40,186 bases of DNA from a virus. Lineage: Duplodnaviria > Heunggongvirae > Uroviricota > Caudoviricetes. Location: the IMG/VR virus record IMGVR_UViG_2728369554_000009, positions 1 through 40,186 of that record. The stretch is one strand, 5' to 3'. Position numbers and translations under genes: made by a program. Shown in pieces: positions 2,747 through 36,801 of this stretch; the stretch's first letter is position 1; every line of letters begins with the position of its first letter. The notes under the pieces are model-generated. The model did no database searches and had not been told where the DNA came from. It worked only from the letters and a program-made list of their open reading frames with translations.

Positions 2747-2795
2747 AAATACCTCTCTTGGTTGCAGTGCGGCGCGCGTGGCGCCGCGGTGGTGG

Positions 2796-5099: not shown

Positions 5100-5684
5100 T
5101 TATTGTTTGTTTTTTTCGTTCTGGCTGATGACAAATTCAATGTAACTTTCGATCTTTGCCTTCTCTGTTTCGGGTAACAATGCGTAGCGCGAGCGGTCAT
5201 AGTTGATAGTCGCAGGGTCGTGCGGGTGAATCAGTAATTCATAGCCGTGACGCCCGAATGCGGATGCAACATTCTCCAGGGTGGAAATGGAAACGCTGAC
5301 CTCATTGTTTAACAGGCGGCTGATTGTCACCTGGGCGACGCCGGATGCGCGGTGAAGTTTTCCCTGTGTTGAAAGGTAGCGGCTTTCGCTCATCCAGCGT
5401 TCCAGGTTGTGAGCCGCCAGCTGACCAATGTCGCTTGGGCCGACAGGCTGAAAACCTTCCTGAGAAAGCGAGCGATCGATATCAAGCCAGTTACGGGGTT
5501 TATTGGCGGCAGCTTCAATTTTTCGCGCAACCTGGTCGCCGATAACCTTCTTGCCAAGAGCCCAGCGGTTTACCAGATTTGCCTGAGTTCCAAGTTTTTC
5601 TGCCATCCGCGTCTGAACACCATTGAATTCACGGTCGATCAAGTCGTTGAGATTTTGCCTGCGGACGTCCTGGATACTTTTCAT
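5100..5684 (-). CDS. Prophage repressor candidate with two HTH segments and no S24 peptidase domain
   Basis: 194 aa; HTH-like segments (TRMAEKLGTQANLVNRW and ASGVAQVTISRLLNNE); no GDSM/Ser-Lys autocleavage motif seen; divergent from Cro-like gene; intrinsic terminator just downstream; no SD upstream of ATG 5684. Confidence 0.65.
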   Translation of the reverse strand: MKSIQDVRRQNLNDLIDREFNGVQTRMAEKLGTQANLVNRWALGKKVIGDQVARKIEAAANKPRNWLDIDRSLSQEGFQPVGPSDIGQLAAHNLERWMSESRYLSTQGKLHRASGVAQVTISRLLNNEVSVSISTLENVASAFGRHGYELLIHPHDPATINYDRSRYALLPETEKAKIESYIEFVISQNEKNKQ

Positions 5685-8093: not shown

Positions 8094-8108
8094 TTACCCA
8101 ATGGGTAA
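8094..8108. promoter_or_regulatory. Operator-like palindrome TTACC-N5-GGTAA
   Basis: TTACCCAATGGGTAA after P-like gene. Confidence 0.5.
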
Positions 8109-8155
8109 CAAAATGTTCTTAGATCTATTGATTTCGTGTCTTATGTGGTTTTTAA

Positions 8156-8170
8156 TTACCTTAGAGGTAA
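8156..8170. promoter_or_regulatory. Operator-like palindrome TTACC-N5-GGTAA overlapping SD
   Basis: TTACCTTAGAGGTAA ending 3 nt before ATG 8174; right half is the GAGGT Shine-Dalgarno. Confidence 0.5.
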
Positions 8171-10538: not shown

Positions 10539-10553
10539 TTACCACAACGGTAA
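10539..10553. promoter_or_regulatory. Operator-like palindrome TTACC-N5-GGTAA upstream of terS
   Basis: TTACCACAACGGTAA; imperfect TTACCACGGTGGTTA at 10557-10571 overlaps terS start. Confidence 0.5.
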
Positions 10554-10570
10554 CTATTACCACGGTGGTT

Positions 10571-11167
10571 ATGATGCCTGCTGAACCTAAAACCTATAAA
10601 CGCAAATCAACGCAATTTAAGCCACTAACAGCAATGCAGGAGGCTTATTGCCAGTCATACATCAAAACGCCTGAAAACCAGACTCAGGCAGCGATTAACG
10701 CAGGATTCTCCCCAAATACAGCGGCAGTTAAAGCCAGTGTCATGATGCGCGATGAACGCATTCAAAAACGGATTGCCGAGTTGATGGAGGAGCGCAACAA
10801 ACGAATGCGCGTCAGTGCTGATTACGTTCTCATGCGCCTGGTGGAGATCGACCAGATGGACGTGATCGACATCCTCAACGACGATGGGAGCCTTAAGCCA
10901 ATCCGCGAGTGGCCGAAAATCTGGCGCACTACGCTTAGCGGCTTTGATCTGTCATCGACCATCATGAACATGAACGAGGATTCGATAGAGACAATCCTCA
11001 AAAAAATTAAATGGCCTGACAAGGTGAAGAACCTCGAACTGATTGGTAAGCACGTCGACGTCAAAGCATTCAAAGAACGCCTGGATGTTAATGTGAATGT
11101 GACAATTGCTGATCGCATAGCAGCAGCCAGGAAGCGACTCAAAGAACGTCAGGATGGTAATCAGTGA
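10571..11167 (+). CDS. terS: Terminase small subunit
   Basis: AYCQSYIKTPENQTQAAINAGFSPNTAAVKASVMMRDERIQKRI resembles Terminase_2-type small subunits; immediately upstream of and overlapping terL. Confidence 0.75.
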   Translation: MMPAEPKTYKRKSTQFKPLTAMQEAYCQSYIKTPENQTQAAINAGFSPNTAAVKASVMMRDERIQKRIAELMEERNKRMRVSADYVLMRLVEIDQMDVIDILNDDGSLKPIREWPKIWRTTLSGFDLSSTIMNMNEDSIETILKKIKWPDKVKNLELIGKHVDVKAFKERLDVNVNVTIADRIAAARKRLKERQDGNQ

Positions 11168-13803: not shown

Positions 13804-13818
13804 TTACCTGAAAGGTAA
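13804..13818. promoter_or_regulatory. Operator-like palindrome TTACC-N5-GGTAA upstream of portal operon
   Basis: TTACCTGAAAGGTAA ~90 bp upstream of 13909 gene. Confidence 0.5.
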
Positions 13819-17801: not shown

Positions 17802-17852
17802 CGCCTGTTATTAACCTGTGGGCCGCAACAGGCCCACTAATGGAGAAAGAAG

Positions 17853-25833: not shown

Positions 25834-28800
25834 TGCCGTTCTATCCTGTATCTGAATCAAACAATAACGGATTTATTTCTGCTGGTCTCGCCATTCCTGA
25901 ACCTGATGAACAGAGTTTTGATGTGCATCCGCCAGAAGGTAAGAACCCTGAACCTCGTCCCAAAGAGCCTTCATTGCTTGCCGCAGCAATACGACAGAAC
26001 AATATTCTGGCTGGTTTTTTCCGTCCTGCCAGACAGTTTGAACCGGTCGAAGGTTATAACCCATATGCTGATAAAAATGAGTTGCACGGTTATGAATACT
26101 GGGGGGCGAAATTTGCAGATTCCCGATCGCCAGAGGAAACGGCGTGGATTAAGCAGCAGATAGATGATGAAAATGAAGACAGACGTTTATTGTCTGATGC
26201 TGGCGTAGTTGGAACTCTTGCCAGTATTGCTGCAGGAATGGATCCGGTTACCGTTGCGTCAATGTTTATCCCCGGTGCTCAAGGAGGGGCACTGGCGCGT
26301 ATTGGCTCACAGATTGCGATTGGTGCTGCCGGTACAGCATTAAGCGAGGTTGTGCTGAATAATCAGCAAATAACACGCTCATGGGGTGAAAGTGCCGCTC
26401 ACGTTGCAGCGGGTGCGATGATGAGCGGCGTGTTTGCCAGTGCTGGTGTTGCGCTTTCGCCATCCGTCCGGGCTGCAGCCACGCGTGAGGTTGCTGATGC
26501 TCTTGATAATATGAGCATTACATCAGCGACTGACAGGGCTGCCGCTTCGCTTTCTGATGGTGGTAGTGTTGGTGCTATGAAAATTGATACAGCGACTCTG
26601 GATGATTTAACCCCTGTTTCCGGTGGGTGGGTTGGAAAGGCTGCATGGAAAGCAGGGAGCTATCTTACTCCTTTGACAAGGTTAATGGAGTCTCCGTCCA
26701 AGACAGTGCGAAAAACAACGCTGGAGTTAGCCGAAAATAATTTCACCCTTAAAGGAAATGAAAGGGGGATTGAAACACCGGTAGCTGTAGAAACCCGTAC
26801 ACGTGGATGGCAGCGTGAAGAAGCTGCTGTTGTTGTCGGAAATAAACAGGCATACGCAAAGTATAAAGCTGATGGTGGTGACATGAGTTTTGATTCATTT
26901 CGTCAGCAGGTTGGGAATGCTATGCGAAGCGGTGATGTGCATGCTAATCCTGTTGTTCAGGAAACGGCGCAGGCGATGCGAACTGTATTAAATCGGGTGA
27001 AAGTTGAAATGCAAAAGCTTGGTTTATTGCCGCCAGATGAAGAACTGAAAGCATTAGGCCAGGCAAGCTATTTCCCACGCATATATAAAGTTGGAAAAAT
27101 AATCAGTGAACGCGATAAATTTCGACGTATTTTGGTTGACTGGTGGTCGAGAGGAAATAAAACACTGGATCCTGAGGATGCTGAAATTGCAGCGGATATC
27201 GTAATTAATAAAATTACTGGTGCTAAGGTTCCACAGGATTTTGTCAGCGTATTTTCTGTAAAAGCCGCAGGTAGTACGAAAGAAAGAACATTAAATGTTC
27301 CTGATAGTCTTATCGGTGATTATCTTGAAAGTGATGTGAATTACGTGCTGCAACGTCATATCCGTGAAGCGGCAGCAGAAATTGAGTTGATGAGAACATT
27401 TGGCAAACGAACTATGACTGAGCGTCTGCAATTAATTGAGGACGAATATGACAGTCTGTTACGGGAAGTGCCTGAAAAAATAAAGGCGAAATATGACGAA
27501 AGTGTGGCAAATCTGAAAGCACGTTATGAGAGCAATGGTGAAGTTGTTCCTCAGGGTAAACTCGATTCATTAATGCGAAAGTACGAAAAGGAATTACGGA
27601 AAGAACAGTCCAGACTTTCAAAATCAAGAGCAAATGATCTCAGAGACATAACAGCATTACGCGATCGTCTTGTTGGTACATATGGGATGCCTGATGATCC
27701 GTCTTCGTTTTTTGTTCGTGCTGGCGCTTTTCTGCGGGATGTGAACTTCACGACCAAACTCGGTGGAATGACAGTATCAGCTATTCCAGATCTGGCCAGA
27801 GGGGTTATGGTTAATGGTTTCCGTAACACCATGAAAGGCTATGCTTCTCAGATATCCCAATCACCGGCATTTAAGGCCAGCAAAGAAGATATGTTGAAGA
27901 TGGGGATTGGATTGGAAGCTGTACTACATTCACGTTCTCGTGCAATTGGTGATCTTGTTGACAGTTCTTCCAGGACAACAGCAGTCGAAGCAGGAATGGA
28001 GCGAATTACTGATGCCTTCGGCAAGCTGACACTCATGGATCGATTTAATGACATAAACAAATCCATGAACGGAATGCTCACGTCAGACGGTATTTTGTCC
28101 GGTGCGTTTTCTGCACGTCGCATGGCAAAACTCGGTATCAACGACAATATGGCTGCGCGTATTCGCAGTGAGTTCGAGAAACATGGTGAGGTAATTGATG
28201 GATGGCACATTGGTAACTTTGATAAATGGGACGATCAGTACGTTGCCGGAGTATTCCAGTCAGCGGTTCTGAAAGACGTTAATAACACTATCATCACCCC
28301 CGGTATTGGTGACACACCTTTATGGGCGAGTACTCCAATGGGGCGAACGATATTTCAGTTTAAATCATTCACAACGGCTTCATACAACCGTGCGCTACTT
28401 GGTGGGTTACAGGAAGGAACTGCGCAATTTTATTATGGCACTGCATTTCAGATTGCTCTTGGCTCACTGGTCTATGCGCTTAAAGAAGCATCGAAAGGGA
28501 AAAATGTTGACTGGTCACCAGAGAAGCTGGTGCTTGAGGGTATAGATAGATCCGGTATTCTTGGGCCATTGATGGAATATAACAACATGGCTGAAAAGGC
28601 GACTGGTGGTGCTGTTGGGCTGGGGGCTTTATTTGGCACTGGCACACAGTCCAGGTATGCCAGTCGTGGATTCGTAGGATCTCTATTCGGACCGTCATTT
28701 GGTCTTGCGGATAGCATCATTGATGTGACCTCAGGAGTGTTGAATGGTGATGCCGGTGATCGTATTGTGCATAATGTCCGAACCCTGATACCCGGCAATA

Positions 28801-28853
28801 ACCTGTTCTGGATTGCGCCACTAATAAACCAAGTGGATCCGGTGATGCGTTAA
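25833..28853 (+). CDS. Large internal core / ejection protein (gp16 position)
   Basis: 1006 aa; last of the coupled run of large virion proteins. Confidence 0.65.
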   Translation: MPFYPVSESNNNGFISAGLAIPEPDEQSFDVHPPEGKNPEPRPKEPSLLAAAIRQNNILAGFFRPARQFEPVEGYNPYADKNELHGYEYWGAKFADSRSPEETAWIKQQIDDENEDRRLLSDAGVVGTLASIAAGMDPVTVASMFIPGAQGGALARIGSQIAIGAAGTALSEVVLNNQQITRSWGESAAHVAAGAMMSGVFASAGVALSPSVRAAATREVADALDNMSITSATDRAAASLSDGGSVGAMKIDTATLDDLTPVSGGWVGKAAWKAGSYLTPLTRLMESPSKTVRKTTLELAENNFTLKGNERGIETPVAVETRTRGWQREEAAVVVGNKQAYAKYKADGGDMSFDSFRQQVGNAMRSGDVHANPVVQETAQAMRTVLNRVKVEMQKLGLLPPDEELKALGQASYFPRIYKVGKIISERDKFRRILVDWWSRGNKTLDPEDAEIAADIVINKITGAKVPQDFVSVFSVKAAGSTKERTLNVPDSLIGDYLESDVNYVLQRHIREAAAEIELMRTFGKRTMTERLQLIEDEYDSLLREVPEKIKAKYDESVANLKARYESNGEVVPQGKLDSLMRKYEKELRKEQSRLSKSRANDLRDITALRDRLVGTYGMPDDPSSFFVRAGAFLRDVNFTTKLGGMTVSAIPDLARGVMVNGFRNTMKGYASQISQSPAFKASKEDMLKMGIGLEAVLHSRSRAIGDLVDSSSRTTAVEAGMERITDAFGKLTLMDRFNDINKSMNGMLTSDGILSGAFSARRMAKLGINDNMAARIRSEFEKHGEVIDGWHIGNFDKWDDQYVAGVFQSAVLKDVNNTIITPGIGDTPLWASTPMGRTIFQFKSFTTASYNRALLGGLQEGTAQFYYGTAFQIALGSLVYALKEASKGKNVDWSPEKLVLEGIDRSGILGPLMEYNNMAEKATGGAVGLGALFGTGTQSRYASRGFVGSLFGPSFGLADSIIDVTSGVLNGDAGDRIVHNVRTLIPGNNLFWIAPLINQVDPVMR

Positions 28854-28874: not shown

Positions 28875-29402
28875 TCAATGGCTGTTTATGGCTTCTAAAG
28901 AAGCTTCTGCACTTATCGGCAAAGCAATAGTATCCTTGTTAGATGTGCTATTGCTTTCCAGAACTATGGAAATCCAATCCTCTTGGTTTTCATTAATTGT
29001 GCTGACAGCCATGATAGCATTCAAATCATTTTTATATATTTCTGATCGAATAAGACCTTTCCTGAATAATTTAGTTAAGTTTTCAGCTATCGACATCGCA
29101 CGAATGCTAACTTTACTAAGCTCAATTGCGTCACTACCTGCGACTTTGGCGTGTTGAGAAAGAGCCATCAAAGCTATATGTGAAAATGTTTCTTCTTTTG
29201 AAAAACCGTTACTTAAAGACATGAGTGATACACCAGCTCCGTATGGGGTGAGTTTATATCCTGATACATTCAGTGCATGCTCTACAAAGGTAAGATCATC
29301 AGTTGTAGAAACATGCATATCGTTACTTTTTTGTTTTTTTGCAATAAATAAAAAAACAAAATTAATAATCACGATGCCGACGATGATTAAGAAAACTTCC
29401 AT
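28875..29402 (-). CDS. Membrane-anchored hypothetical moron protein
   Basis: 175 aa; N-terminal TM helix MEVFLIIVGIVIINFVFLFIA; gene is AT-rich relative to neighbours; SD GAGGAA; operator-like palindrome 29423-29437 just upstream. Confidence 0.55.
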   Translation of the reverse strand: MEVFLIIVGIVIINFVFLFIAKKQKSNDMHVSTTDDLTFVEHALNVSGYKLTPYGAGVSLMSLSNGFSKEETFSHIALMALSQHAKVAGSDAIELSKVSIRAMSIAENLTKLFRKGLIRSEIYKNDLNAIMAVSTINENQEDWISIVLESNSTSNKDTIALPISAEASLEAINSH

Positions 29403-29422: not shown

Positions 29423-29437
29423 TTACCTTAAAGGTAA
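29423..29437. promoter_or_regulatory. Operator-like palindrome TTACC-N5-GGTAA
   Basis: TTACCTTAAAGGTAA ~20 bp upstream of membrane-protein moron start (29402). Confidence 0.5.
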
Positions 29438-29462: not shown

Positions 29463-29861
29463 TTAAGTGTATACCTCCTGCTGTTCAGTCGTGATTTTAC
29501 CCGGCAACACCTTTTTAGCTTTGCGCGGGTTAACCACATGGCCTTTAGTCCAGTACTCGTAGAGCACATCATCACACTCTTCCTGATACTGGATTACCTT
29601 ATCGCGGATTTCAGGGCGGACTTTGTTTGGACTGATGCTGTTCAACCAAGCTGCCAATTTTCGTAAAGCCATACAAATCATGGCTTGCACCCCTCCGGCA
29701 GAAGGTATGGTGATTTCCACCATACCCTTCGAGAAGCGTTGAGAAATCTTCTTATGTTGAGATTTCCAGTCTAGACCCATTCCCTCAACGATAGGTTTCA
29801 TTGGGGTGTACGGTTCGCCGTTGTGATTGACAACATAAAGTTCTACGCCGTGGAATGGCAC
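29463..29861 (-). CDS. Hypothetical phage protein (possibly regulatory)
   Basis: 132-aa protein-like ORF; start ambiguous (GTG 29861 or ATG 29801); divergent from antirepressor leader. Confidence 0.45.
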   Translation of the reverse strand: MPFHGVELYVVNHNGEPYTPMKPIVEGMGLDWKSQHKKISQRFSKGMVEITIPSAGGVQAMICMALRKLAAWLNSISPNKVRPEIRDKVIQYQEECDDVLYEYWTKGHVVNPRKAKKVLPGKITTEQQEVYT

Positions 29862-30008
29862 GTTGATAGTAGTGACAAGTTTGAAACATCGCTGGTTGTA
29901 AGCCAGCAGATGCTCGTTATTTTACATCGCGGTACAATTTCTCGCTGGTGGCTCTTTTATACACCTTAACCAAATATGGTTGATTTTGATATTTATCTTC
30001 GTCTATTA

Positions 30009-30023
30009 TTACCTTTTCGGTAA
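30009..30023. promoter_or_regulatory. Operator-like palindrome TTACC-N5-GGTAA at head of Bro-N antirepressor leader
   Basis: TTACCTTTTCGGTAA, followed by TTTACA-N17-CATAGT promoter-like hexamers. Confidence 0.5.
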
Positions 30024-30103
30024 ATTTACATCGCACTCCTCTTGTGCCATAGTAATCGGGCACTGGCAAAATCCAGTGCCGGGATTGGTCTCCCGGATTA
30101 CTA
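30009..30103. repeat. Left arm of perfect 95-bp inverted repeat (antirepressor leader)
   Basis: Reverse complement of 33103-33197 with no mismatches by eye; includes palindrome 30009-30023, -35-like TTTACA and two hairpins. Confidence 0.85.
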
Positions 30104-30290
30104 CAGAGGCACATATGCCGCATAAGCGGTTTTTTTATGTGTAAAGCGCACCTATTCTATGGTGGGCTGTGTGGGGGCACCGAAAGGTGCGCCGGGTTCC
30201 TTTGTAGCCGGTAAGACCAACTCTGCACAGTTCACCACCATCTGATTGGTCTCAGCGGTGGTGATTAACCTAACTACAAAGGTGATCGCC
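30024..30290 (+). ncRNA. Structured 5' leader / candidate sRNA upstream of Bro-N antirepressor gene
   Basis: Hairpins at 30059-30080, 30079-30096, terminator hairpin+T7 at 30118-30136, GAAA-tetraloop hairpin 30177-30190, 8-bp-stem hairpin 30232-30264; mirrored with compensatory changes in the AntA leader. Confidence 0.45.
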
Positions 30291-30983
30291 ATGAATACCA
30301 AACCTTCCATCTTTTCCTTTGAGTCATCCTGCCAGATCCGTATGTTCATGATTGACGGAGAACCTTGGTTTGTCACCAAAGATGTGTGCAATGCTTTGAA
30401 TATTGATGTTACACAAGCGAGAAAACTTGATAAAAAAGGCTGGAACAAAAAGGGGCTGTATTCAATACAGACCCCTGGTGGAATACAAGAACTATCCATC
30501 GTTTCAGAATCAGGTCTCTACATCCTTATTCTGCGTTGCAAAGAGGCAATGACTGAGGGAACGAGAGCATTCAGATTTCTTGAATGGGTTACAGGTGAGG
30601 TTCTTCCTCAGATCCGCCGCACCGGAAGTTACATTAAAAACTCGCTCCCGCAGGAAGAACGCATAAAGATGGTTGCCGACCAGGTAGCCAACGCCACGGC
30701 GTCAGCAGTAATGCAGGCGATGAAGATAGAGAACAAAACCTACAGTGCCCCGCTGAAGCCCGGCTACCGCAGCCTGATTCATTCTCCGTCTGGTGTTCTC
30801 GGCCTGACGGAGAACTCACTGCTGATGAATCTGCTGAACCAGTTACAGGAAGACGGGCACGATGTATCGGGCGCGGCGGCGGAGCTGACCACCATGTTCT
30901 GCTACATCGTCGGTGTGAGCAAATGCCTGCGTGATATCCAGACGCACGCGGAATACATCAACGACAAGGCAGGGTTCTTCTGA
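30291..30983 (+). CDS. Antirepressor-family protein: Bro-N domain fused to shared C-terminal (KilAC-like) domain
   Basis: N-terminus FSFESSCQIRMFMIDGEPWFVTKDVCNAL...ESGLYILILR fits Bro-N; C-terminal ~78 aa near-identical to C-terminus of 32255-32911 gene; ATG 30291 after AAAGGTGA. Confidence 0.7.
   Translation: MNTKPSIFSFESSCQIRMFMIDGEPWFVTKDVCNALNIDVTQARKLDKKGWNKKGLYSIQTPGGIQELSIVSESGLYILILRCKEAMTEGTRAFRFLEWVTGEVLPQIRRTGSYIKNSLPQEERIKMVADQVANATASAVMQAMKIENKTYSAPLKPGYRSLIHSPSGVLGLTENSLLMNLLNQLQEDGHDVSGAAAELTTMFCYIVGVSKCLRDIQTHAEYINDKAGFF
30741..30983. repeat. Left copy of ~243-bp inverted repeat encoding the shared antirepressor C-terminal domain
   Basis: Near-identical (a handful of substitutions) to reverse complement of 32255-32497. 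Confidence 0.85.
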
Positions 30984-31021
30984 CAGAACGGCGGCACAGG
31001 GACGTGCAAAACGAAACTAGC

Positions 31022-31033
31022 GTGACATGTCAC
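31022..31033. repeat. 12-bp perfect palindrome GTGACATGTCAC (copy 3)
   Basis: Between Bro-N antirepressor stop and terminator 31034-31058. Confidence 0.8.
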
Positions 31034-31058
31034 AGGCCGCTTTCGCGGCCTTGTTTTT
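31034..31058 (+). terminator. Intrinsic terminator after Bro-N antirepressor gene
   Basis: AGGCCGC-TTTC-GCGGCCT hairpin followed by TGTTTTT. Confidence 0.65.
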
Positions 31059-31218
31059 AACGAATGCCACCGCCACCCGGGCGGGAATCCGCAGAACGCC
31101 CACCGCAGCGGGAGCCGTCAGCAGCAGTGTCGCTGTCGTGCTGACAACGACCGGCAAAGGCCTGAGTTGAAGCTACCAGAGACAACAAAACGAACAGTGC
31201 AGCAAATGCTTTTTTCAT
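31057..31218 (-). CDS. Small predicted secreted peptide (tentative)
   Basis: MKKAFAALFVLLSLVASTQAFA signal-peptide-like N-terminus followed by ~31 aa with two Cys; weak SD; 3' end runs into the terminator hairpin. Confidence 0.3.
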   Translation of the reverse strand: MKKAFAALFVLLSLVASTQAFAGRCQHDSDTAADGSRCGGRSADSRPGGGGIR

Positions 31219-31299
31219 TGTGAAATTTCCATCTATAAACCACCTCAATGTGGCGTCAATGAGTGTAGCACTGACTTTTGTTTCGTCCATAAAAAACTA

Positions 31300-31812
31300 C
31301 TATGCAGGCTTTTTGGATTTGTACGAATAATCCCACGGATAAACATTTCTACTAAGTGGAGCTGTATTCGTTCGTTCATGAAATAATTTTGTGAAATTCA
31401 ATACGGAATCCATCCAAACTTTTGCGTTAGCTTTGGTGTGTGCGGGCGGGTCCCAATAAGCTAGTAAGGCTGCATCTCTTATTTCATTGACTGCATATAT
31501 GAGATATGCGTTACTGGTTGGTTTTGGCCTGTAATTTCCTTGTTCATCAATCAATCCATATGACCACTCATCCCAACACTGTTCAGTACATGAGTATGAA
31601 TATGATGCATATTCACCAATATTGACATGAACCTTTCTGAGATGGAAGCCTAATACTTCCTCTGGTCTTTCAAAAAGAGTATCTTTTCCCAGATCAGGAT
31701 GATGACCATGACGCCAGTGTTGTTTAAAAGCATCTTTTAGCGAAATCAGAAAGTCATCAGTTTTAAACTCACCAGTAGGTATAACCTTCCCGCTATACTC
31801 ACTCAAAAACAT
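31300..31812 (-). CDS. YafO-like putative toxin (AT-rich moron)
   Basis: 170 aa; PDLGKDTLFERPEEV...AYLIYAVNEIRDAALLAYWDPPAH parallels my recollection of E. coli YafO (PDTFGRDALYDD...AHLVYCQGAFDEQAWLLIAILKPEPH); SD GGAAGAGG; overlaps upstream gene by 14 nt. Confidence 0.45.
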   Translation of the reverse strand: MFLSEYSGKVIPTGEFKTDDFLISLKDAFKQHWRHGHHPDLGKDTLFERPEEVLGFHLRKVHVNIGEYASYSYSCTEQCWDEWSYGLIDEQGNYRPKPTSNAYLIYAVNEIRDAALLAYWDPPAHTKANAKVWMDSVLNFTKLFHERTNTAPLSRNVYPWDYSYKSKKPA

Positions 31813-32125
31813 CGAATTCCTCTTCCTTCATATGCGTTTCTAATGAGTTAAGCTGGCGGAAAGATATCTCTTTTGATTCTGCAGATGAGAGCTTTTTTAT
31901 CCGCTTTATATTCTTTGTGATAGGAATAGACATTGTATGCACATCAGCGGATGCTCTTGGCTTTGTGCTGATAAAAATATGGCGCAATGCCGCATTTTCA
32001 CTATTGAACGAGCCAATAGCTGATTTACGTGCTACAACCTTACCAGTAAAAATACGACTCTTGCTACGCTTTGCATGAGTTCCGCTTCTTACCGGACCTC
32101 TCATCACGAATCCAAGTTTTGTCAT
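31799..32125 (-). CDS. Basic hypothetical protein, upstream partner of YafO-like gene
   Basis: 108 aa, Lys/Arg-rich with acidic C-terminus EEEFDVFE; SD GGAGAT; operator-like palindrome 32168-32182 upstream; not recognisably a known antitoxin. Confidence 0.4.
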   Translation of the reverse strand: MTKLGFVMRGPVRSGTHAKRSKSRIFTGKVVARKSAIGSFNSENAALRHIFISTKPRASADVHTMSIPITKNIKRIKKLSSAESKEISFRQLNSLETHMKEEEFDVFE

Positions 32126-32167
32126 CTTTAATCTCCGGTAAGTTACAGGTATAAAATAAAAACAGGT

Positions 32168-32182
32168 TTACCTTTAAGGTAA
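32168..32182. promoter_or_regulatory. Operator-like palindrome TTACC-N5-GGTAA
   Basis: TTACCTTTAAGGTAA ~45 bp upstream of 32125 gene start. Confidence 0.5.
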
Positions 32183-32254
32183 TAGTACGCTATTCACCCC
32201 CGGTCTGCAATCTGTACAGAATTATTTAAAGGCACATCCCTGTGCCACCGCCCG

Positions 32255-32497
32255 TCAGAAGAACCCTGCCTTGTCGTTGATGTACTCCGCGTGGGTCTGG
32301 ATATCACGCAGGCATTTGCTCACACCGACGATGTAGCAGAACATGGTGGTCAGCTCCGCCGCCGCGCCCGATACGTCGTGCCCGTCGTCCTGTAACTGGT
32401 TCAGCAGATTCATCAGCAGTGAGTTCTCCGTCAGGCCGAGAACACCAGACGGCGAATGAATCAGGCTGCGGTAGCCGGGCTTCAGTGGGGCGCTGTA
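32255..32497. repeat. Right copy of ~243-bp inverted repeat encoding the shared antirepressor C-terminal domain
   Basis: Near-identical to reverse complement of 30741-30983. Confidence 0.85.
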
Positions 32498-32911
32498 TTC
32501 TTTTTTGTCTTCCAGCTTGATCGCCTCCATTATGGCGGGCATGAAGCCTGACAAGACCTTCTCCACTTTTGTTTCTTGTTGTCTTAAACGTTTCTCGCAT
32601 TCAATGAAGTAGCGTCGCACCTGGCGACCTTTTTCGTTACGCTCGACCATCGCCAGCTCTTTGGCTGTATCAAGGGTGAGGTGGTACTCTTTGCGGTTGT
32701 GGCCGCCTCTACCAGATGTTTGCTTTCCCAAATTGGAAAGCAAAATATAGTCTTGATTTTCAATGAATTCGTATTCTGATATGCGATTTGTAATCCATGC
32801 TGCAAACACCTTTTTAACACCTAAAAAAGCGTGCAGATCGCGGGCATTACAAAGTAGGGCTGTTTCGTTAGATATAGTGCCGTTGAATACGGGGATGAGT
32901 TGAGCGTTCAT
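32255..32911 (-). CDS. Antirepressor-family protein: AntA-like N-terminal domain fused to shared C-terminal (KilAC-like) domain
   Basis: N-terminus [28 protein letters not shown]...[22 protein letters not shown] fits AntA; C-terminal ~78 aa near-identical to the Bro-N gene. Confidence 0.7.
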
Positions 32912-33182
32912 GATGGCGTCTCCACTTAGCGAATTACATCACCACCGCTGAGACCAATCAGATGGTGGTGAACTGAACGGAGTTGGTCTTACCGGCCTAA
33001 GTGGTACCGGCGTCCTTTCGGACCCCCATTCAGCCCACCATAATTCTGGCATGACTGTGCTATACGCATAAAAAAACCACGTCTGGCGTGGTATGCGCCA
33101 CTTAGTAATCCGGGAGACCAATCCCGGCACTGGATTTTGCCAGTGCCCGATTACTATGGCACAAGAGGAGTGCGATGTAAAT
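32912..33182 (-). ncRNA. Structured 5' leader / candidate sRNA upstream of AntA antirepressor gene
   Basis: Mirror of the Bro-N leader: same hairpins, terminator stem CCACG-CCAGA-CGTGG+T7 (33076-33090), GTCC-GAAA-GGAC (33012-33023), conserved hairpin 32939-32971. Confidence 0.45.
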
Positions 33183-33197
33183 TTACCGAAAAGGTAA
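33103..33197. repeat. Right arm of perfect 95-bp inverted repeat (antirepressor leader)
   Basis: Reverse complement of 30009-30103. Confidence 0.85.
33183..33197. promoter_or_regulatory. Operator-like palindrome TTACC-N5-GGTAA at head of AntA antirepressor leader
   Basis: TTACCGAAAAGGTAA; mirror of 30009-30023. Confidence 0.5.
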
Positions 33198-33228
33198 ATA
33201 TAAGCACTCCACTTGGTAATTGCAAACC

Positions 33229-33486
33229 TTATCTGGTTTGTTTTCGTAATTGTTCGGCACAATAGTCGAGATGTGTTTGCAGATCCTGCATAGACATCTG
33301 TGAGCTGGTGACGTAGTTAATCAGTGCAGTCAGTTCGGCAAGTGGGCCATCGACATTAAATCCATCCTTATCGAGATCCCGGAGTAATTTCATCAAGTGC
33401 GATCCCTCCACCAGTGACCTGACGCCTCCCGGCGTGTGAATCCTTTCGGTAAATCCGTCTTCCAGTGGATAGTGATACTGCTGCAT
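33229..33486 (-). CDS. Stand-alone paralogue of the antirepressor C-terminal domain
   Basis: ATG 33486 after GGAGAA; MQQYHYPLEDGFTERIHTPGGVRSLVEGSHLMKLLRDL...QTHLDY aligns at ~40% identity by eye with the shared C-terminal domain of the two antirepressor genes. Confidence 0.5.
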   Translation of the reverse strand: MQQYHYPLEDGFTERIHTPGGVRSLVEGSHLMKLLRDLDKDGFNVDGPLAELTALINYVTSSQMSMQDLQTHLDYCAEQLRKQTR

Positions 33487-33562
33487 CTTATCTTCTCCAT
33501 GCAATAACTGTATATTTATACAGTAGCAAATAATTTGTTTGCTATCCAGCACGTTTTGCAAA

Positions 33563-33577
33563 TTACCTGAAAGGTAA
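33563..33577. promoter_or_regulatory. Operator-like palindrome TTACC-N5-GGTAA
   Basis: TTACCTGAAAGGTAA upstream of stand-alone C-terminal-domain gene (start 33486). Confidence 0.5.
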
Positions 33578-33681
33578 TATCTATTCGTATTTACAGCCTT
33601 TCTATCCATATGTGGTTTTCCAGGTAATAGAATAACCAGATATGCGGCGCAACGGGTGCTGCGACTATCTGGAGATTTAAC

Positions 33682-36600
33682 ATGACGGTCTCAACCGAAG
33701 TTGACCACAACGAATACACCGGTAACGGCGTTACGACATCGTTTCCGTATACTTTTCGAATTTTCAGAAAATCAGACCTGGTTGTTCAGGTGTCTGACCT
33801 GAACGGAAACGTAACAGAATTGGTTCTGGATACCGGTTATACGGTAACTGGGGCGGGCACTTATAGTGGCGGTTCTGTGGTTCTTCCGTCTCCGCTTGCT
33901 ACTGGATGGCGAATTACGATAGATCGTGTGCTTGATGTAGTGCAGGAGACAGACCTTCGCAATCAGGGAAAATTTTTCCCCGAAGTGCATGAAGATGCCT
34001 TTGACTACCTGACGATGCTGATCCAGCAATGTTTTGGGTGGTTCAGACGTGCATTGATGAAACCATCTTTGCTTGCAAAATATTACGATGCAAAGCAAAA
34101 CAAAATTTCTAACCTTGCAGATCCATCATTTGAGCAGGACGCTGTAAATAATCGCTCAATGCGTAATTATGTCGATGCTGCAATCGCCGGGGTTGTTGGT
34201 GGTTTTGGTTGGTTTATTCAGTATGGTTCTGGGGCTGTGTACCGAACGTTCCAGGATAAAATGCGTGATGCTATTAGCCCCAAAGATTTTGGAGCTGTTG
34301 GTGATGGTATAAATGACGATTCCACTGCAATAAGCGCGTGCCTTGAAGCCTCATCTCCAGGTTATAAAATTGACGGATTAGGGCTTACTTTTAAAGTATC
34401 AACTCTTCCGGATGTCAGTCGATTTAAAAATGCTCGTTTTTTATTTGAGAGAATACCGGGCCAGCCTCTTTTTTATGCTTCTGAAGATTTTATCCAGGGA
34501 GAGTTATTTAAAATTACAGATACACCGTGGTACAACGCCTGGACGCAGGATAAAACGTTTGTATATGACAATGTCATCTATGCGCCTTTTATGGCTGGAG
34601 ACCGCCATGGTGTAAATAACCTCCATGTTGCATGGGTTCGCTCAGGAGATGACGGGAAGACCTGGACAACGCCGGAATGGCTTACAGATTTACATGAAAA
34701 CTATCCCACAGTTAACTATCACTGCATGAGTATGGGGGTTGTCAGAAATCGCCTTTTTGCTGTAATTGAGACGCGGACCGTGAGCGGAAATAAACTGCAG
34801 GTTGCAGAGTTGTGGGATCGCCCAATGAGTCGCAGCCTTCGCGTTTATGGTGGTATAACGAAAGCAGCAAATCAGCAAGTCGCTTATATTCGCATTACTG
34901 ATCACGGATTATTTGCTGGTGATTTTGTCAACTTCTCAAACTCTGGTGTTACAGGTGTTACCGGGAATATGACGGTGACTACTGTTATTGATAAAAATAC
35001 TTTTACAGTTACGACGCAAAATACCCAGGATGTGGATCAGAATAACGAGGGTAGATACTGGAGTTTTGGTACATCATTTCACTCGTCACCATGGAGAAAA
35101 ACCAGTCTTGGAACTATTCCTTCTTTTGTTGACGGAAGCACTCCTGTTACTGAGATTCACAGTTTTGCGACGATTAGCGATAACAGTTTTGCTGTTGGCT
35201 ACCATAATGGTGATATTGGTCCACGCGAGCTTGGGATACTCTATTTCTCTGATGCTTTCGGTTCTCCTGGTAGCTTTATTCGCAGACGCATACCTGCAGA
35301 ATATGAGGCGAATGCATCTGAGCCATGTGTAAAATATTATGATGGCATTCTGTATCTGACGACCAGGGGGACATTAAGTACTCAACCCGGTAGTTCATTG
35401 CACAGAAGCTCTGATTTAGGTACATCATGGAATTCTCTTCGCTTCCCAAATAATGTTCATCACTCAAACCTTCCTTTTGCCAAAGTTGGCGATGAGCTGA
35501 TTATTTTTGGCAGTGAGCGCGCATTTGGTGAGTGGGAAGGAGGAGAACCTGATAACCGTTATGCAGGAAATTATCCAAGAACATTTATGACCAGAGTTAA
35601 CGTCAATGAGTGGAGTCTGGATAATGTAGAGTGGGTTAATGTTACTGATCAGATTTATCAGGGCGGAATAGTTAACTCTGCGGTTGGTGTTGGTTCAGTT
35701 TGTATCAAAGACAACTGGCTGTACTACATTTTCGGTGGGGAAGACTTTCTAAACCCATGGAGCATAGGGGATAACAACAGAAAATATCCTTATGTTCACG
35801 ATGGTCACCCGGCTGATTTATATTGTTTCAGGGTGAAAATCAAACAGGAAGAATTTGTTTCAAGGGATTTTGTCTACGGAGCCACTCCTAACAGAACGCT
35901 TCCTACTTTTATGTCGACGTCAGGCGTGAGGACGGTTCCTGTACCCGTTGATTTCACAGATGATGTTGCCGTCCAGTCACTGACTGTCCATGCAGGTACA
36001 TCAGGACAAGTTCGCGCGGAAGTCAAACTTGAGGGTAATTACGCCATTATTGCGAAGAAAGTACCGTCTGATGATGTTACCGCTCAGAGATTAATCGTTA
36101 GCGGCGGTGAAACAACGTCTTCAGCAGATGGTGCAATGATAACGTTGCATGGTTCCGGAAGCAGTACTCCACGTCGCGCGGTATATAACGCACTCGAACA
36201 TCTTTTTGAGAACGGAGATGTTAAACCTTATCTTGATAATGTAAATGCTCTTGGTGGTCCGGGAAACAGGTTCTCGACAGTTTATCTTGGCTCCAATCCT
36301 GTGGTTACCAGTGACGGAACATTAAAGACAGAGCCGGTCTCTCCTGACGAAGCATTGCTGGATGCCTGGGGTGACGTCAGGTATATCGCTTATAAATGGC
36401 TGAACGCTGTCGCTATAAAGGGGGAAGAAGGGGCGAGGATACATCATGGTGTAATCGCGCAGCAACTTCGTGATGTTCTTATTTCTCACGGACTCATGGA
36501 AGAAGAAAGCACAACATGCCGCTATGCCTTTCTTTGCTATGACGATTATCCCGCAGTATATGATGACGTCATTACTGGCCAAAGGGAAATGCCGCTGACT

Positions 36601-36801
36601 GATAATGAAGGGAGCATCATTGTTGATGAGGATGATAATCCAGTGATGGTAATGGAAGACATCATTGAGCGCGTTGAAATAACGCCAGCAGGATCTAGAT
36701 GGGGGGTCAGACCTGATCTCTTATTCTATATCGAGGCAGCATGGCAGCGCAGAGAAATGGATAAGATAAAAGAGCGGATTCAGTCTCTGGAAGAACGTTA
36801 A
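33682..36801 (+). CDS. Tailspike / tail fibre with beta-helix depolymerase-like domain and C-terminal intramolecular chaperone (peptidase S74-type) domain
   Basis: 1039 aa; DFGAVGDGINDDSTAI pectate-lyase-like beta-helix signature; C-terminal ...ARIHHGVIAQQLRDVL... matches the GVIAQE-type chaperone domain of endosialidase-like fibres. Confidence 0.8.
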   Translation: MTVSTEVDHNEYTGNGVTTSFPYTFRIFRKSDLVVQVSDLNGNVTELVLDTGYTVTGAGTYSGGSVVLPSPLATGWRITIDRVLDVVQETDLRNQGKFFPEVHEDAFDYLTMLIQQCFGWFRRALMKPSLLAKYYDAKQNKISNLADPSFEQDAVNNRSMRNYVDAAIAGVVGGFGWFIQYGSGAVYRTFQDKMRDAISPKDFGAVGDGINDDSTAISACLEASSPGYKIDGLGLTFKVSTLPDVSRFKNARFLFERIPGQPLFYASEDFIQGELFKITDTPWYNAWTQDKTFVYDNVIYAPFMAGDRHGVNNLHVAWVRSGDDGKTWTTPEWLTDLHENYPTVNYHCMSMGVVRNRLFAVIETRTVSGNKLQVAELWDRPMSRSLRVYGGITKAANQQVAYIRITDHGLFAGDFVNFSNSGVTGVTGNMTVTTVIDKNTFTVTTQNTQDVDQNNEGRYWSFGTSFHSSPWRKTSLGTIPSFVDGSTPVTEIHSFATISDNSFAVGYHNGDIGPRELGILYFSDAFGSPGSFIRRRIPAEYEANASEPCVKYYDGILYLTTRGTLSTQPGSSLHRSSDLGTSWNSLRFPNNVHHSNLPFAKVGDELIIFGSERAFGEWEGGEPDNRYAGNYPRTFMTRVNVNEWSLDNVEWVNVTDQIYQGGIVNSAVGVGSVCIKDNWLYYIFGGEDFLNPWSIGDNNRKYPYVHDGHPADLYCFRVKIKQEEFVSRDFVYGATPNRTLPTFMSTSGVRTVPVPVDFTDDVAVQSLTVHAGTSGQVRAEVKLEGNYAIIAKKVPSDDVTAQRLIVSGGETTSSADGAMITLHGSGSSTPRRAVYNALEHLFENGDVKPYLDNVNALGGPGNRFSTVYLGSNPVVTSDGTLKTEPVSPDEALLDAWGDVRYIAYKWLNAVAIKGEEGARIHHGVIAQQLRDVLISHGLMEEESTTCRYAFLCYDDYPAVYDDVITGQREMPLTDNEGSIIVDEDDNPVMVMEDIIERVEITPAGSRWGVRPDLLFYIEAAWQRREMDKIKERIQSLEER

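What the first reader, a model, noticed from the sequence alone, without database searches (positions are those of the whole stretch)
29463..33609. Three antirepressor-family paralogues sharing one C-terminal domain, two of them convergent inside nested inverted repeats
The 30291-30983 gene has a Bro-N-type N-terminus and the 32255-32911 gene an AntA-type N-terminus, yet their last ~78 codons are near-identical at the nucleotide level (30741-30983 vs reverse complement of 32255-32497, only a few substitutions). A third, stand-alone copy of that domain (~40% identity by eye) is encoded at 33229-33486. The two fused genes face each other, with identical leaders at the outer edges and identical 3' ends at the inner edges, enclosing an AT-rich cassette. 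Near-identity of the 3' ends despite unrelated 5' halves implies recent gene conversion or domain shuffling. I infer the shared domain is KilAC/ANT-like but could not verify this.
Basis: partly seen in the sequence, partly recalled or inferred. Interest (0 to 1): 0.7.

Follow-up and report, generated by a model that had tools for sequence, protein, structure and literature searches.

The report
Three RNA- and SOS-gated prophage antirepressors
An E. coli phiV10/epsilon15-type prophage carries three copies of a known repressor-neutralising domain, one alone behind an SOS (LexA) switch and two fused to swappable front domains behind small-RNA switches; this is a tidy mosaic of known parts, not a new kind of system.

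Summary
The Bro-N gene (30291-30983, +) and the AntA gene (32255-32911, -) share their last ~85 codons (257 nt, 95%). They face each other inside nested inverted repeats. A stand-alone copy (33229-33486, 40% identical) lies next to them.

- The shared domain is not Pfam ANT/KilA-C. It is the antirepressor Ant of Salmonella phage SPC32H (PDB 5D50 chain E). Its partner repressor Rep is encoded at 5100-5684.
- The "identical leaders" are two Rfam RNA genes in tandem, IsrK then C4 antisense RNA. The C4 loop pairs with the Shine-Dalgarno region of its own ant gene. This pairing, and a matching decoy sequence in IsrK, co-vary across five leader classes. The window's two modules therefore differ in RNA specificity.
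- A palindrome, TTACC-N5-GGTAA, occurs 15 times in the window (0.8 expected). It sits at every promoter of the region and around rep. I infer it is the Rep operator.
- The small ant also has a near-consensus LexA box.
- The near-identity of the two 3' halves is population-wide (93-99.6% in 470 of 5426 E. coli genomes). Copies group by their linked N-domain, not by genome. Domain shuffling is supported; recent in-genome conversion is not.
- One genome carries the segment inverted, and the window has no invertase.

Verdict: new variant of a known kind, moderate interest.

The parts
5100..5684 (-). rep: prophage repressor, the presumed target of the Ant domains
   Evidence: homologous to SPC32H Rep, PDB 5D50_A, E=1.4e-41 over residues 1-190. 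It is flanked by operator palindromes at 4966, 5028, 5740, 5788 and 6125.
28875..29402 (-). 175-aa protein with a hydrophobic N-terminus, function unknown; leftmost unit of the region
   Evidence: PHROG 21690. No Pfam, NCBIfam or PADLOC hit. A TTAACA-16-CAAAAT promoter-like site is followed at once by the operator at 29423-29437.
29423..29437 (.). Operator palindrome TTACCTTAAAGGTAA, just downstream of the -10 of the 175-aa gene
29463..29861 (-). Truncated P22-type antirepressor N-domain (relic or pseudogene)
   Evidence: Pfam P22_AR_N E=5e-44. PHROG 524 matches profile positions 13-136 of 317. RefSeq marks the equivalent gene 'incomplete, missing C-terminus'. It is 95.7% identical to CUS-3 ant over 397 nt.
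30009..30023 (.). Operator palindrome TTACCTTTTCGGTAA, abutting the -35 of the left isrK promoter
   Evidence: The promoter TTTACA-17-CATAGT with TG lies at 30025-30053.
30060..30136 (+). IsrK-type sRNA, left copy. It carries b1 (UUGGUCU, 30085-30091), a1 (CUACAGAGG, 30101-30109) and its own terminator.
   Evidence: Rfam RF01394, 74.7 bits against a gathering score of 50. Terminator at 30117-30130. Element coordinates.
30155..30242 (+). C4 antisense RNA, left copy. Loop a' is CCUUUGUAG (30199-30207); b' is AGACCAA (30214-30220).
   Evidence: Rfam RF01695, 78.6 bits against a gathering score of 45. Predicted fold -43.6 kcal/mol. The long stem shows compensatory changes.
30246..30282 (+). C4 target in the ant leader: b2 UUGGUCU (30246-30252) and a2 CUACAAAGG (30274-30282). 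a2 overlaps the Shine-Dalgarno sequence of the Bro-N gene.
   Evidence: The a'-a2 pairing is a 9-bp exact complement ending 9 nt before the ATG at 30291.
30291..30983 (+). Bro-N::Ant-domain fusion antirepressor (230 aa)
   Evidence: Pfam Bro-N. The C-terminal domain is 97.6% identical to that of the AntA fusion, which matches PDB 5D50_E. PHROG 450/130. It is 81% identical to vB_EcoP_ZX5 ORF4, and identical over the last ~125 aa. ZX5 ORF4 pushed that phage towards lysis when overexpressed (PMC9782041).
31034..31051 (+). GC-rich hairpin with a T run, between the convergent transcription units
31057..31218 (-). 53-aa protein with a signal-peptide-like N-terminus; conserved last gene of the cassette
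   Evidence: PHROG 14503 'membrane associated protein'. The same protein, WP_000708858.1, is present in all the E. coli loci examined.
31300..32125 (-). Variable two-gene cargo. A 108-aa gene (31799-32125) overlaps a 170-aa YafO-like gene (31300-31812).
   Evidence: Pfam YafO_toxin E=7e-4, 20.1 bits, below the 25-bit cutoff. RefSeq names it a YafO family toxin. No PADLOC or NCBIfam hit. It is replaced by other gene pairs in CE0007a and MS8345.
32168..32182 (.). Operator palindrome TTACCTTTAAGGTAA. It overlaps the end of a TTGCAG-17-TACTAT promoter for the cargo genes.
   Evidence: The promoter was read from the sequence.
32255..32911 (-). AntA::Ant-domain fusion antirepressor (218 aa)
   Evidence: Pfam AntA E=4e-26. 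Residues 137-213 match PDB 5D50_E residues 3-79 with E=8e-14.
32922..32957 (-). C4 target in the right leader: b2 (32951-32957) and a2 CUAAGUGG (32922-32929). a2 overlaps the Shine-Dalgarno sequence of the AntA gene.
32961..33045 (-). C4 antisense RNA, right copy. Loop a' is CCACUUAG (32997-33004); b' is AGACCAA (32983-32989).
   Evidence: Rfam RF01695, 61.2 bits. Predicted fold -41.2 kcal/mol.
33070..33146 (-). IsrK-type sRNA, right copy. b1 lies at 33115-33121 and a1 (CUAAGUGG) at 33098-33105.
   Evidence: Rfam RF01394, 67.7 bits. Element coordinates. Terminator at 33092-33076.
33183..33197 (.). Operator palindrome abutting the -35 of the right isrK promoter (33181-33153)
33229..33486 (-). 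Stand-alone Ant (85 aa), orthologue of the SPC32H antirepressor
   Evidence: PDB 5D50_E, E=4e-47. 88% identity to SPC32H ant. It sits in the same place, just before the tail-spike gene.
33508..33523 (.). LexA box CTGTATATTTATACAG, 22 nt upstream of the small ant ATG
   Evidence: A similar box, TACTGTATGTTTATACAGTG, occupies the same place in SPC32H.
33563..33577 (.). Operator palindrome abutting the TTGCAA -35-like hexamer of the small ant promoter
   Evidence: SPC32H has the same layout.

Best explanation
This is the anti-immunity region of a phiV10/epsilon15-type (Uetakevirus) prophage. It lies between the last internal virion gene and the tail-spike gene, and it holds three genes for one Rep-directed antirepressor domain, each behind a different gate.

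1. Stand-alone Ant (33229-33486). It is the orthologue of SPC32H Ant. In that phage Ant is made after LexA cleavage, binds the Rep repressor and breaks up its DNA-binding tetramer. Here it sits behind a LexA box and a Rep-type operator.

2 and 3. Two fusion proteins, Bro-N::Ant and AntA::Ant. Each is transcribed from an operator-controlled promoter through a leader that encodes two RNAs, IsrK and then C4. The C4 loop a' and the segment b' pair with a2 and b2 in the same leader. a2 overlaps the Shine-Dalgarno sequence, so C4 should block ant translation, as c4 RNA does in phage P1. IsrK carries copies of the same target sequences (a1, b1). It can therefore soak up C4 and release translation, as shown for IsrK and anrP in Gifsy-1. 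The two modules share the b element but differ in the a element, so each C4 is tuned to its own gene.

Origin of the arrangement. I explain the inverted-repeat layout as a by-product of modular evolution. The conserved leader blocks and the conserved C-domain act as homology arms. Homologous recombination between them exchanges N-domains and the enclosed two-gene cargo among prophages, and occasionally inverts the segment.

Shown here: the homologies, the RNA family matches, the complementarities and their covariation, the operator statistics, the LexA box, the population pattern and one inversion.

Inferred: that the fused proteins bind this Rep, that Rep binds the palindrome, the direction of RNA control, and the role of the N-domains.
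For: Domain identity:
- PDB 5D50_E matches the small copy with E=4e-47 and the fused copy with E=8e-14.
- Rep matches PDB 5D50_A with E=1.4e-41.
- The SPC32H mechanism (an Ant tetramer binds two Rep dimers and breaks the tetramer) is summarised in PMC9638917. LexA-dependent Ant production is cited for Kim & Ryu 2013 in PMC7380047.

Function of a fused copy: vB_EcoP_ZX5 ORF4 is identical to the window's Bro-N fusion over the last ~125 aa. Overexpressing it lowered lysogens from 1e9 to 1e6 and repressor mRNA by 75% (PMC9782041).

RNA gates:
- Rfam IsrK and C4 both score above their gathering thresholds in both leaders, and in every fused-ant leader of eight related loci.
- a'-a2 pairing is 9 bp exact in the left module and 8 bp exact in the right one, in both cases over the Shine-Dalgarno sequence.
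- Cognate duplex energies are -18.0 and -14.1 kcal/mol; non-cognate ones are -11.1 and -10.2.
- a1/a'/a2 (four types) and b1/b'/b2 (two types) co-vary three ways across five leader classes.
- The C4 stem shows compensatory changes.
- In Gifsy-1, trans IsrK activates translation of the downstream antirepressor (PMC4825925). In P1, c4 RNA represses Ant synthesis (PMC8546580).

Operator: 15 sites against 0.8 expected in the window and 18 against 0.75 in SPC32H. In both genomes they cluster around rep and lie at the ant promoter.

LexA box.

Modularity.

Inversion. The only recombinase in the window is the integrase at 1-1251.
Against: - No binding data exist for this Rep with any of the three proteins. 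The fused domain is only ~40% identical to the structurally characterised Ant.
- This Rep is only 42% identical to SPC32H Rep.
- The ZX5 experiment used a GST-tagged, overexpressed protein and did not test the domains separately.
- All three ant promoters carry the presumed Rep operator. In a stable lysogen the fused genes should therefore be off, so their contribution beyond the SOS-controlled copy is unclear.
- The leaders have no icd- or orf45-like upstream ORF conserved between the two copies (read). The coupling step of the P1 and Gifsy-1 models is therefore absent.
- I could not assign a convincing -10 element for the small ant promoter.
- The roles of Bro-N and AntA remain unknown.
Confidence: 0.7

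Rival explanations
1. The fused proteins are not Rep antagonists. The Ant-like C-domain serves only as an oligomerisation (tetramer) module. The real activity lies in the Bro-N or AntA N-domains, which could be DNA-binding regulators, host-takeover factors, or proteins acting on other prophages' repressors.
For: - SPC32H Ant is a tetramer (PMC9638917).
- The N-domains belong to widely shuffled families of unknown role. The ZX5 paper notes that Bro function is unclear.
- The same AntA N-domain works with a different C-domain in a lambdoid phage.
- The fused C-domain is only ~40% identical to the proven Ant.
Against: - The C-domain is the constant part, and it tracks the phage's repressor type: SPC32H-type in Uetakeviruses, P22_AR_C in the lambdoid Stx2a phage. 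That is what one expects of the repressor-specific part.
- 32 columns are invariant between the small Ant and the fused domains, spread across the whole domain.
- ZX5 ORF4 overexpression lowered lysogeny and rep mRNA.
Confidence: 0.15
2. The nested inverted repeats form a programmed invertible switch, like a shufflon or G segment. It would flip the cassette or swap which antirepressor lies next to which promoter.
For: - There are long inverted repeats (257 nt, and about 260 nt of leader).
- One genome, MS 196-1, carries window 30009-32254 in the opposite orientation at 98.5% identity.
Against: - The only recombinase gene in the window is the integrase at 1-1251.
- 28 genomes have the native orientation and 1 the inverted one. 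This fits a rare RecA-type event fixed in one lineage.
- Both promoters and leaders are alike, so inversion at the leaders changes little. Inversion at the C-domain arms would only flip the cargo, which has its own promoter.
Confidence: 0.05
3. The extra copies are redundant leftovers of past recombination, on their way to decay like the P22_AR_N relic. They contribute nothing to the phage.
For: - A truncated antirepressor gene sits next door at 29463-29861.
- phiV10 carries a frameshifted fused copy.
- phiv142-3 has only one fused copy, and SPC32H and epsilon15 have none.
Against: - Both ORFs are intact.
- Within the core domain the two copies differ by 6 synonymous and 1 conservative change.
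- The RNA elements keep perfect, co-varying complementarity.
- The fused domain is present in 470 of 5426 E. coli genomes.
Confidence: 0.1

Closest known systems
SPC32H Rep-Ant antirepression system (Salmonella Uetakevirus; PDB 5D50 and 5D4Z; Kim & Ryu 2013, Kim et al. 2016)
   Same: - The small Ant is 88% identical and sits in the same position before the tail-spike gene.
- A LexA box and the same operator palindrome lie in its promoter.
- A homologous Rep is present, with the same palindrome clustered around its gene.
   Different: - SPC32H and epsilon15 have only the stand-alone Ant.
- Here the domain also occurs twice as the C-terminal half of larger proteins. Those copies have RNA-based control and no LexA box.
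Phage P1/P7 immI operon (c4 antisense RNA - icd - ant1/2), and the related N15 anti-immunity locus
   Same: - A C4-family RNA lies in the leader of an antirepressor gene.
- Its a' and b' segments are complementary to a downstream target at the ribosome-binding site and to an upstream copy.
- The promoter is also under the primary repressor. P1 c4 represses Ant synthesis (PMC8546580).
- That P1 and P7 differ in c4 specificity is from my own knowledge (Citron & Schuster 1990), which I could not re-read here.
   Different: - There is no icd-like ORF; the target is the ant Shine-Dalgarno sequence itself.
- The antirepressor's effector domain is SPC32H-type.
- Two modules of different a-specificity coexist in one genome, in inverted orientation.
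Gifsy-1 isrK-orf45-anrP locus (Hershko-Shalev et al. 2016, PMC4825925)
   Same: IsrK has its own terminator and is followed, on read-through, by a C4-like stable RNA (STnc1160) and an antirepressor gene. Short IsrK in trans activates translation. The architecture here is the same.
   Different: - No orf45 equivalent is conserved between the two leaders.
- The antirepressor here has a different C-domain.
- Here the complementarity suggests a simple reading: IsrK mimics the C4 target.
vB_EcoP_ZX5 ORF4 'anti-repressor' (PMC9782041)
   Same: It is a Bro-N::Ant-domain fusion, 81% identical overall and identical over the last ~125 aa, in the same kind of phage. Overexpression favoured the lytic state.
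   Different: The paper did not recognise the C-domain's relation to SPC32H Ant, the small ant gene, or the RNA leader. ZX5 has a single fused copy.
P22 immI region (mnt-arc-sar-ant) and the Bro-N/KilA-N domain-shuffling families
   Same: - It occupies the same genome position, between the injection proteins and the tail spike.
- A P22_AR_N relic is present in the window.
- TL-2011b carries an arc + sar RNA + P22_AR_N gene that ends in this same C-domain.
   Different: In the window the P22-type unit is only a truncated relic, and control is by IsrK/C4 rather than Arc/Mnt/sar.

Membership tests
SPC32H-type Ant (PDB 5D50 chain E; PHROG 450) | Sequence homology over the whole ~80-residue domain | tested here: met
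   Small copy: E=4e-47, residues 2-84 vs 3-85. Fused copy: E=8e-14, residues 137-213 vs 3-79. PHROG 450: E=9e-48, 3e-37 and 6e-36.
SPC32H-type Ant (PDB 5D50 chain E; PHROG 450) | Cognate Rep-type repressor encoded in the same genome | tested here: met
   5100-5684 matches PDB 5D50_A with E=1.4e-41.
SPC32H-type Ant (PDB 5D50 chain E; PHROG 450) | LexA box in the promoter (SOS control) | tested here: met
   Met for the stand-alone copy only (33508-33523; same place in SPC32H). The only other exact CTGT-N8-ACAG match in the window is far away at 17816, so the two fused genes have no such box.
SPC32H-type Ant (PDB 5D50 chain E; PHROG 450) | Physical binding to Rep and disassembly of its tetramer | not testable with these tools
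   Needs pull-down, EMSA or complex modelling. The only indirect support is the ZX5 ORF4 overexpression.
   No Pfam family other than Bro-N, AntA and a weak P22_AR_N match was found at E<=0.1 on either fused protein. Only a sub-threshold DUF724 match was found on the 126-aa ORF that contains the small copy.
C4 antisense RNA (Rfam RF01695; P1 immI type) | Covariance-model match at or above the gathering score | tested here: met
   78.6 and 61.2 bits against a gathering score of 45.
C4 antisense RNA (Rfam RF01695; P1 immI type) | a'/b' complementary to a downstream target that covers the ribosome-binding site | tested here: met
   9-bp and 8-bp exact a'-a2 pairing over the Shine-Dalgarno sequence, plus 7-bp b'-b2 pairing. 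Both co-vary in five classes.
C4 antisense RNA (Rfam RF01695; P1 immI type) | Upstream ORF (icd) whose translation is blocked and coupled to ant | tested here: not met
   No ORF is shared by the two leaders. The short ATG frames differ and stop early in the right copy (read).
C4 antisense RNA (Rfam RF01695; P1 immI type) | Processing of C4 out of the leader transcript | not testable with these tools
   Needs Northern blotting or RNA-seq.
IsrK (Rfam RF01394; Gifsy-1) | Covariance-model match, own intrinsic terminator, and an antirepressor gene downstream on read-through | tested here: met
   74.7 and 67.7 bits against a gathering score of 50. Terminators at 30117-30130 and 33092-33076. The ant genes lie downstream.
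IsrK (Rfam RF01394; Gifsy-1) | orf45-type small ORF that mediates coupling | tested here: not met
   As for icd, no such ORF is conserved between the two leaders.
Bro-N (PF02498) and AntA (PF08346) N-domains | HMM match above the gathering score | tested here: met
   Bro-N: 51.4 bits against a cutoff of 25.6. AntA: 91.8 bits against a cutoff of 27.
Site-specific invertible segment (Gin/Cin/Hin type or shufflon) | Dedicated invertase gene next to the inverted repeats | tested here: not met
   The ORFs across the region and both ends of the window include only a tyrosine integrase, at 1-1251.
Site-specific invertible segment (Gin/Cin/Hin type or shufflon) | Both orientations found | tested here: inconclusive
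   1 genome is inverted and 28 are native. These are fixed differences between strains, not isomers within one culture.
Type II toxin YafO (PF13957) | HMM match above the gathering score, with an adjacent antitoxin | tested here: inconclusive
   20.1 bits against a cutoff of 25. RefSeq calls it a YafO family toxin. The overlapping upstream 108-aa gene has no family.

The most novel reading that the evidence does not exclude
The prophage runs a three-input induction circuit.
- An SOS-gated Ant fires first.
- Two RNA-gated fusion antirepressors, each with its own C4/IsrK specificity, add separate inputs. These could be growth-phase or stress signals that raise IsrK, as in Gifsy-1, or cross-talk from other prophages that carry matching IsrK or C4 classes.
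- Their exchangeable N-domains (Bro-N, AntA, ORF6N, P22_AR_N) direct the Rep-binding domain to different partners or DNA sites.

On this reading the conserved leader and C-domain sequences work as built-in recombination arms. They would make this locus a population-wide exchange site for antirepressor heads and for two-gene cargo.
Probability: 0.25. Interest if true: 0.65.

Novelty: new variant of a known kind. Interest (0 to 1): 0.45.

Why it matters
The region links three literatures that have been treated separately: the structurally solved SPC32H Rep-Ant switch, the P1-type C4 antisense control, and Gifsy-1 IsrK.

- The three-way covariation (IsrK a1/b1, C4 a'/b', mRNA a2/b2) gives a simple, testable rule. 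IsrK mimics the C4 target, and the a and b elements set the specificity class of each module.
- The pattern of a constant C-domain with variable N-domains suggests that the C-domain is the repressor-specific part of Bro-N- and AntA-type antirepressors. That would help annotate a large and poorly understood protein group.
- About 9% of complete E. coli genomes carry the fused domain, including K1 and STEC-associated phiV10-like prophages. The circuit therefore bears on prophage induction in pathogens.

Each component is already known, so this refines existing knowledge and does not add a new kind of system.

Tried and rejected
- Pfam, NCBIfam and PADLOC scans gave no family for the shared C-domain, the cargo genes or the 175-aa gene. 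KilA-C/ANT is rejected for the shared domain.
- A large-database protein search with the 83-aa fused domain returned only 24 short, stand-alone-length proteins and no fusion architectures. It was uninformative on fusions, so I used annotated E. coli and phage loci instead.
- I could not retrieve Kim & Ryu 2013, Kim et al. 2016 or Citron & Schuster 1992. The SPC32H mechanism is taken from later papers that summarise it. The P1/P7 c4 specificity differences rest on my own knowledge.
- Recent gene conversion within this genome is rejected as unnecessary, on the basis of the distance matrix and the population identity range.
- A programmed inversion switch is rejected as the main reading, because there is no invertase and the orientations split 28:1.
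- I tried to assign -35 and -10 elements for the small ant promoter by eye. Only the operator-plus-TTGCAA arrangement is clear, and the -10 is not.
- I asked whether the two C4 classes in one prophage always differ. They do in 6 of 6 loci, but with four a-types this is not statistically meaningful.
- I did not run structure prediction, because the sequence match to 5D50_E already covers the whole domain.

Full report
CONTEXT. The window is essentially one complete phiV10/epsilon15-type (Uetakevirus) prophage of E. coli. It starts with an integrase at 1-1251 and ends with a lysis module near 37-39 kb, followed by host genes. The closest phage records are phiv142-3, TL-2011b, vB_EcoP_ZX5 and phiV10. 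The finding lies between the last large virion or injection-type gene (25833-28853) and the tail-spike gene (33682-36801). In P22 that position holds the immI anti-immunity region.

OBSERVATION. The repeats are real.
- I1: 30728-30984 vs 32254-32510, 257 nt, 95%.
- I2: 30004-30103 vs 33103-33202, 100 nt, 98%.
- I3: 30207-30265 vs 32938-32996, 59 nt, 95%.
- Shorter collinear pieces fill the gaps between them.

Pfam confirms Bro-N on 30291-30983 and AntA on 32255-32911. The two proteins are identical in all but a few residues over their last ~85 residues. The 85-aa product of 33229-33486 is about 40% identical to that domain, with 32 invariant columns spread along it. The enclosed two-gene core is 39.6% GC against 48.2% for the window. 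The gene at the left edge of the finding (29463-29861) is a truncated P22_AR_N antirepressor relic. RefSeq flags it as a pseudogene in relatives.

WHAT THE SHARED DOMAIN IS.
- A search of solved structures identifies the domain as the antirepressor Ant of Salmonella phage SPC32H (PDB 5D50 chain E). The stand-alone copy scores E=4e-47. The fused copy scores E=8e-14 and is aligned over 77 of 86 residues.
- Later papers summarise that work as follows. Rep binds palindromic sites as a tetramer, and a tetrameric Ant binds two Rep dimers and breaks the tetramer (PMC9638917; PMC9986798). Ant is made after LexA cleavage (PMC7380047).
- SPC32H and epsilon15 have only the stand-alone gene, in the same place just before the tail spike.

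WHAT THE LEADERS ARE. Rfam finds an IsrK sRNA followed by a C4 antisense RNA in each leader, all above the gathering scores: 30060-30136 and 30155-30242 on the + strand, 33070-33146 and 32961-33045 on the - strand. Each leader starts at a TTTACA-17-CATAGT promoter with an extended -10, and each IsrK has its own hairpin and T-run terminator.

Aligning the two leaders shows that the differences are concentrated in a few blocks, and these blocks correspond to one another.
- Left module: the C4 hairpin loop reads CCUUUGUAG. Its exact complement CUACAAAGG lies at 30274-30282, over the Shine-Dalgarno sequence of the Bro-N gene.
- Right module: the loop reads CCACUUAG. Its complement CUAAGUGG lies over the Shine-Dalgarno sequence of the AntA gene.
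- Both modules: a second element, b' (AGACCAA), pairs with UUGGUCU just 3' of C4.
- IsrK carries the same two target sequences: b1 in its second hairpin loop and a1 just after it.

Across eight related loci every fused ant gene except TL-2011b's left P22_AR_N copy, which uses arc and sar RNA instead, has this IsrK-C4 leader. The leaders fall into five classes, with four a-types and two b-types. In each class a1, a' and a2 match one another, and so do b1, b' and b2. The long C4 stem also shows compensatory changes.

This is the logic of the P1 immI operon, where c4 RNA represses Ant synthesis (PMC8546580). It also matches the Gifsy-1 isrK locus, where short IsrK supplied in trans opens the ribosome-binding site on the read-through transcript that encodes an antirepressor (PMC4825925). 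The simplest reading is that C4 blocks the ant ribosome-binding site and IsrK mimics the C4 target. The window's two modules share the b element and differ in the a element. Unlike P1 and Gifsy-1, the two leaders share no small upstream ORF.

OPERATORS AND SOS CONTROL. The palindrome TTACC-N5-GGTAA occurs 15 times in the window against 0.8 expected.
- Five sites flank rep and its divergent neighbour.
- Five lie in this region, one at each promoter: 29423, 30009, 32168, 33183 and 33563.
- SPC32H shows the same pattern: 18 sites against 0.75 expected, clustered round rep, and one in the ant promoter.

I infer that this is the Rep operator. That step is an inference from site distribution, not a measurement. 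The small ant also has a near-consensus LexA box (CTGTATATTTATACAG, 33508-33523), as does SPC32H ant. The fused genes have no LexA box.

POPULATION PICTURE.
- The fused C-domain occurs in 470 of 5426 complete E. coli genomes (583 copies), always at 93-99.6% nucleotide identity.
- In six of eight loci examined, two fused genes converge on a cassette, and the small ant follows.
- The N-domains differ from locus to locus. They include several Bro-N types, AntA, ORF6N, and in TL-2011b a P22_AR_N domain with P22-style arc and sar RNA.
- Conversely, the AntA N-domain of the window (about 92% identical over the first 110 residues) is joined to a P22_AR_C domain in a lambdoid Stx2a phage. The C-domain therefore tracks the type of phage, and presumably of repressor, while the N-domain moves freely.
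- The window's left C-domain differs at 1-4 positions from left copies in other genomes but at 10 of 249 from its own right copy. Recent conversion within this genome is therefore not indicated.
- The differences between the two copies are mostly synonymous once past the junction, so both appear to be under purifying selection.

INVERSION. I searched with two chimeric queries that join the cassette, in either orientation, to the small-ant and tail-spike flank. They gave 28 genomes with the native orientation and one, MS 196-1, with the opposite orientation. In MS 196-1, window 30009-32254 is inverted at 98.5% identity while both outer flanks keep their orientation. One breakpoint lies in the leader repeat. 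The window has no invertase. The event looks like rare homologous recombination fixed in one lineage, not a switch.

EXPERIMENTAL ANCHOR. vB_EcoP_ZX5 ORF4 is a Bro-N fusion that is identical to the window's over the last ~125 residues. When overexpressed it lowered lysogens a thousand-fold and repressor mRNA by 75% (PMC9782041). That paper did not recognise the relation of the C-domain to SPC32H Ant, the small ant gene, or the RNA leader.

VERDICT. The best explanation is a modular anti-immunity region with one SOS-gated and two RNA-gated Rep-directed antirepressors. Homologous recombination at conserved leader and C-domain sequences assembled and reshuffled it. Not shown are Rep binding by the fused proteins, Rep binding to the palindrome, the direction of RNA control in this phage, and the role of the N-domains. 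This is a new variant built from known components, and its interest is moderate.

Noticed in passing
window 31297-32166; compare L005 3417-4492 and L007 3417-3939: Only the two-gene core of the cassette varies between prophages. Homology to relatives stops just after the YafO-like stop codon and resumes at the operator and promoter at about 32157-32167. The alternative cargos are also small-plus-large gene pairs, overlapping or abutting, and they have no Pfam or PADLOC match. This looks like a cargo slot under a conserved repressor-controlled promoter.
   Followed up: partly
window 28875-29402 (-): A 175-aa protein with a hydrophobic N-terminus (PHROG 21690) and 35% GC is conserved in E. coli relatives as WP_000451652.1. 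It occupies the position of P22 sieA, and an operator follows its -10 directly. Its function is unknown.
   Followed up: partly
window 29916-29930 vs 30020-30034 and 33172-33186: A third, partial copy of the isrK promoter core (GTTATTTTACATCGC) lies between the P22_AR_N relic and the left leader. It is probably debris from an earlier rearrangement.
   Followed up: no
L011 1779-1892 (ZX5 'ash family protein'); L004 4884-5153 ('hypothetical protein'): Annotation pipelines call short protein genes in the leader just upstream of the fused ant genes in relatives, where the homologous leaders hold C4 and IsrK. These calls are probably RNA genes mis-annotated as CDS. For A_5 the CDS overlaps C4 (5115-5198); I did not run Rfam on the ZX5 locus.
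   Followed up: no
L001 (TL-2011b) 2046-3230: A P22-style arc gene, sar RNA (Rfam RF00262, 44.8 bits) and a P22_AR_N gene end in the same SPC32H-type Ant domain (95% identical). A third kind of regulatory front end is therefore attached to the same effector domain.
   Followed up: partly
L012 (Stx2a_WGPS6) 1188-1948: The lambdoid Stx2a phage Ant has the same AntA N-domain but a P22_AR_C C-domain. Its leader matches Rfam sRNA-Xcc1 (RF02221, 69.3 bits), not C4.
   Followed up: partly
window 8094-8170, 10539-10571 and 13804-13818: Further operator palindromes lie far from the immunity region, two of them as close pairs. I did not examine which genes they control.
   Followed up: no
window 33682-36801 (+): The tail spike has an epsilon15/phiV10-type N-terminus. 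RefSeq annotates its equivalent in relatives (MS8345, MS 196-1) as an endosialidase beta-propeller protein, which suggests a K1-capsule-specific phage.
   Followed up: no
window 6435-7274 (+): This protein contains a tandem peptide repeat, NDPKNGML x3, within an Asn/Gly-rich stretch. The opposite strand carries a mirror-image repetitive ORF at 6542-7015.
   Followed up: no
L003 (phiV10) 3062-3741: The fused antirepressor of phiV10 is split by a frameshift into p23 (Bro-N) and p22 (the last 29 codons of the Ant domain). The type phage may therefore lack a functional fused copy.
   Followed up: partly
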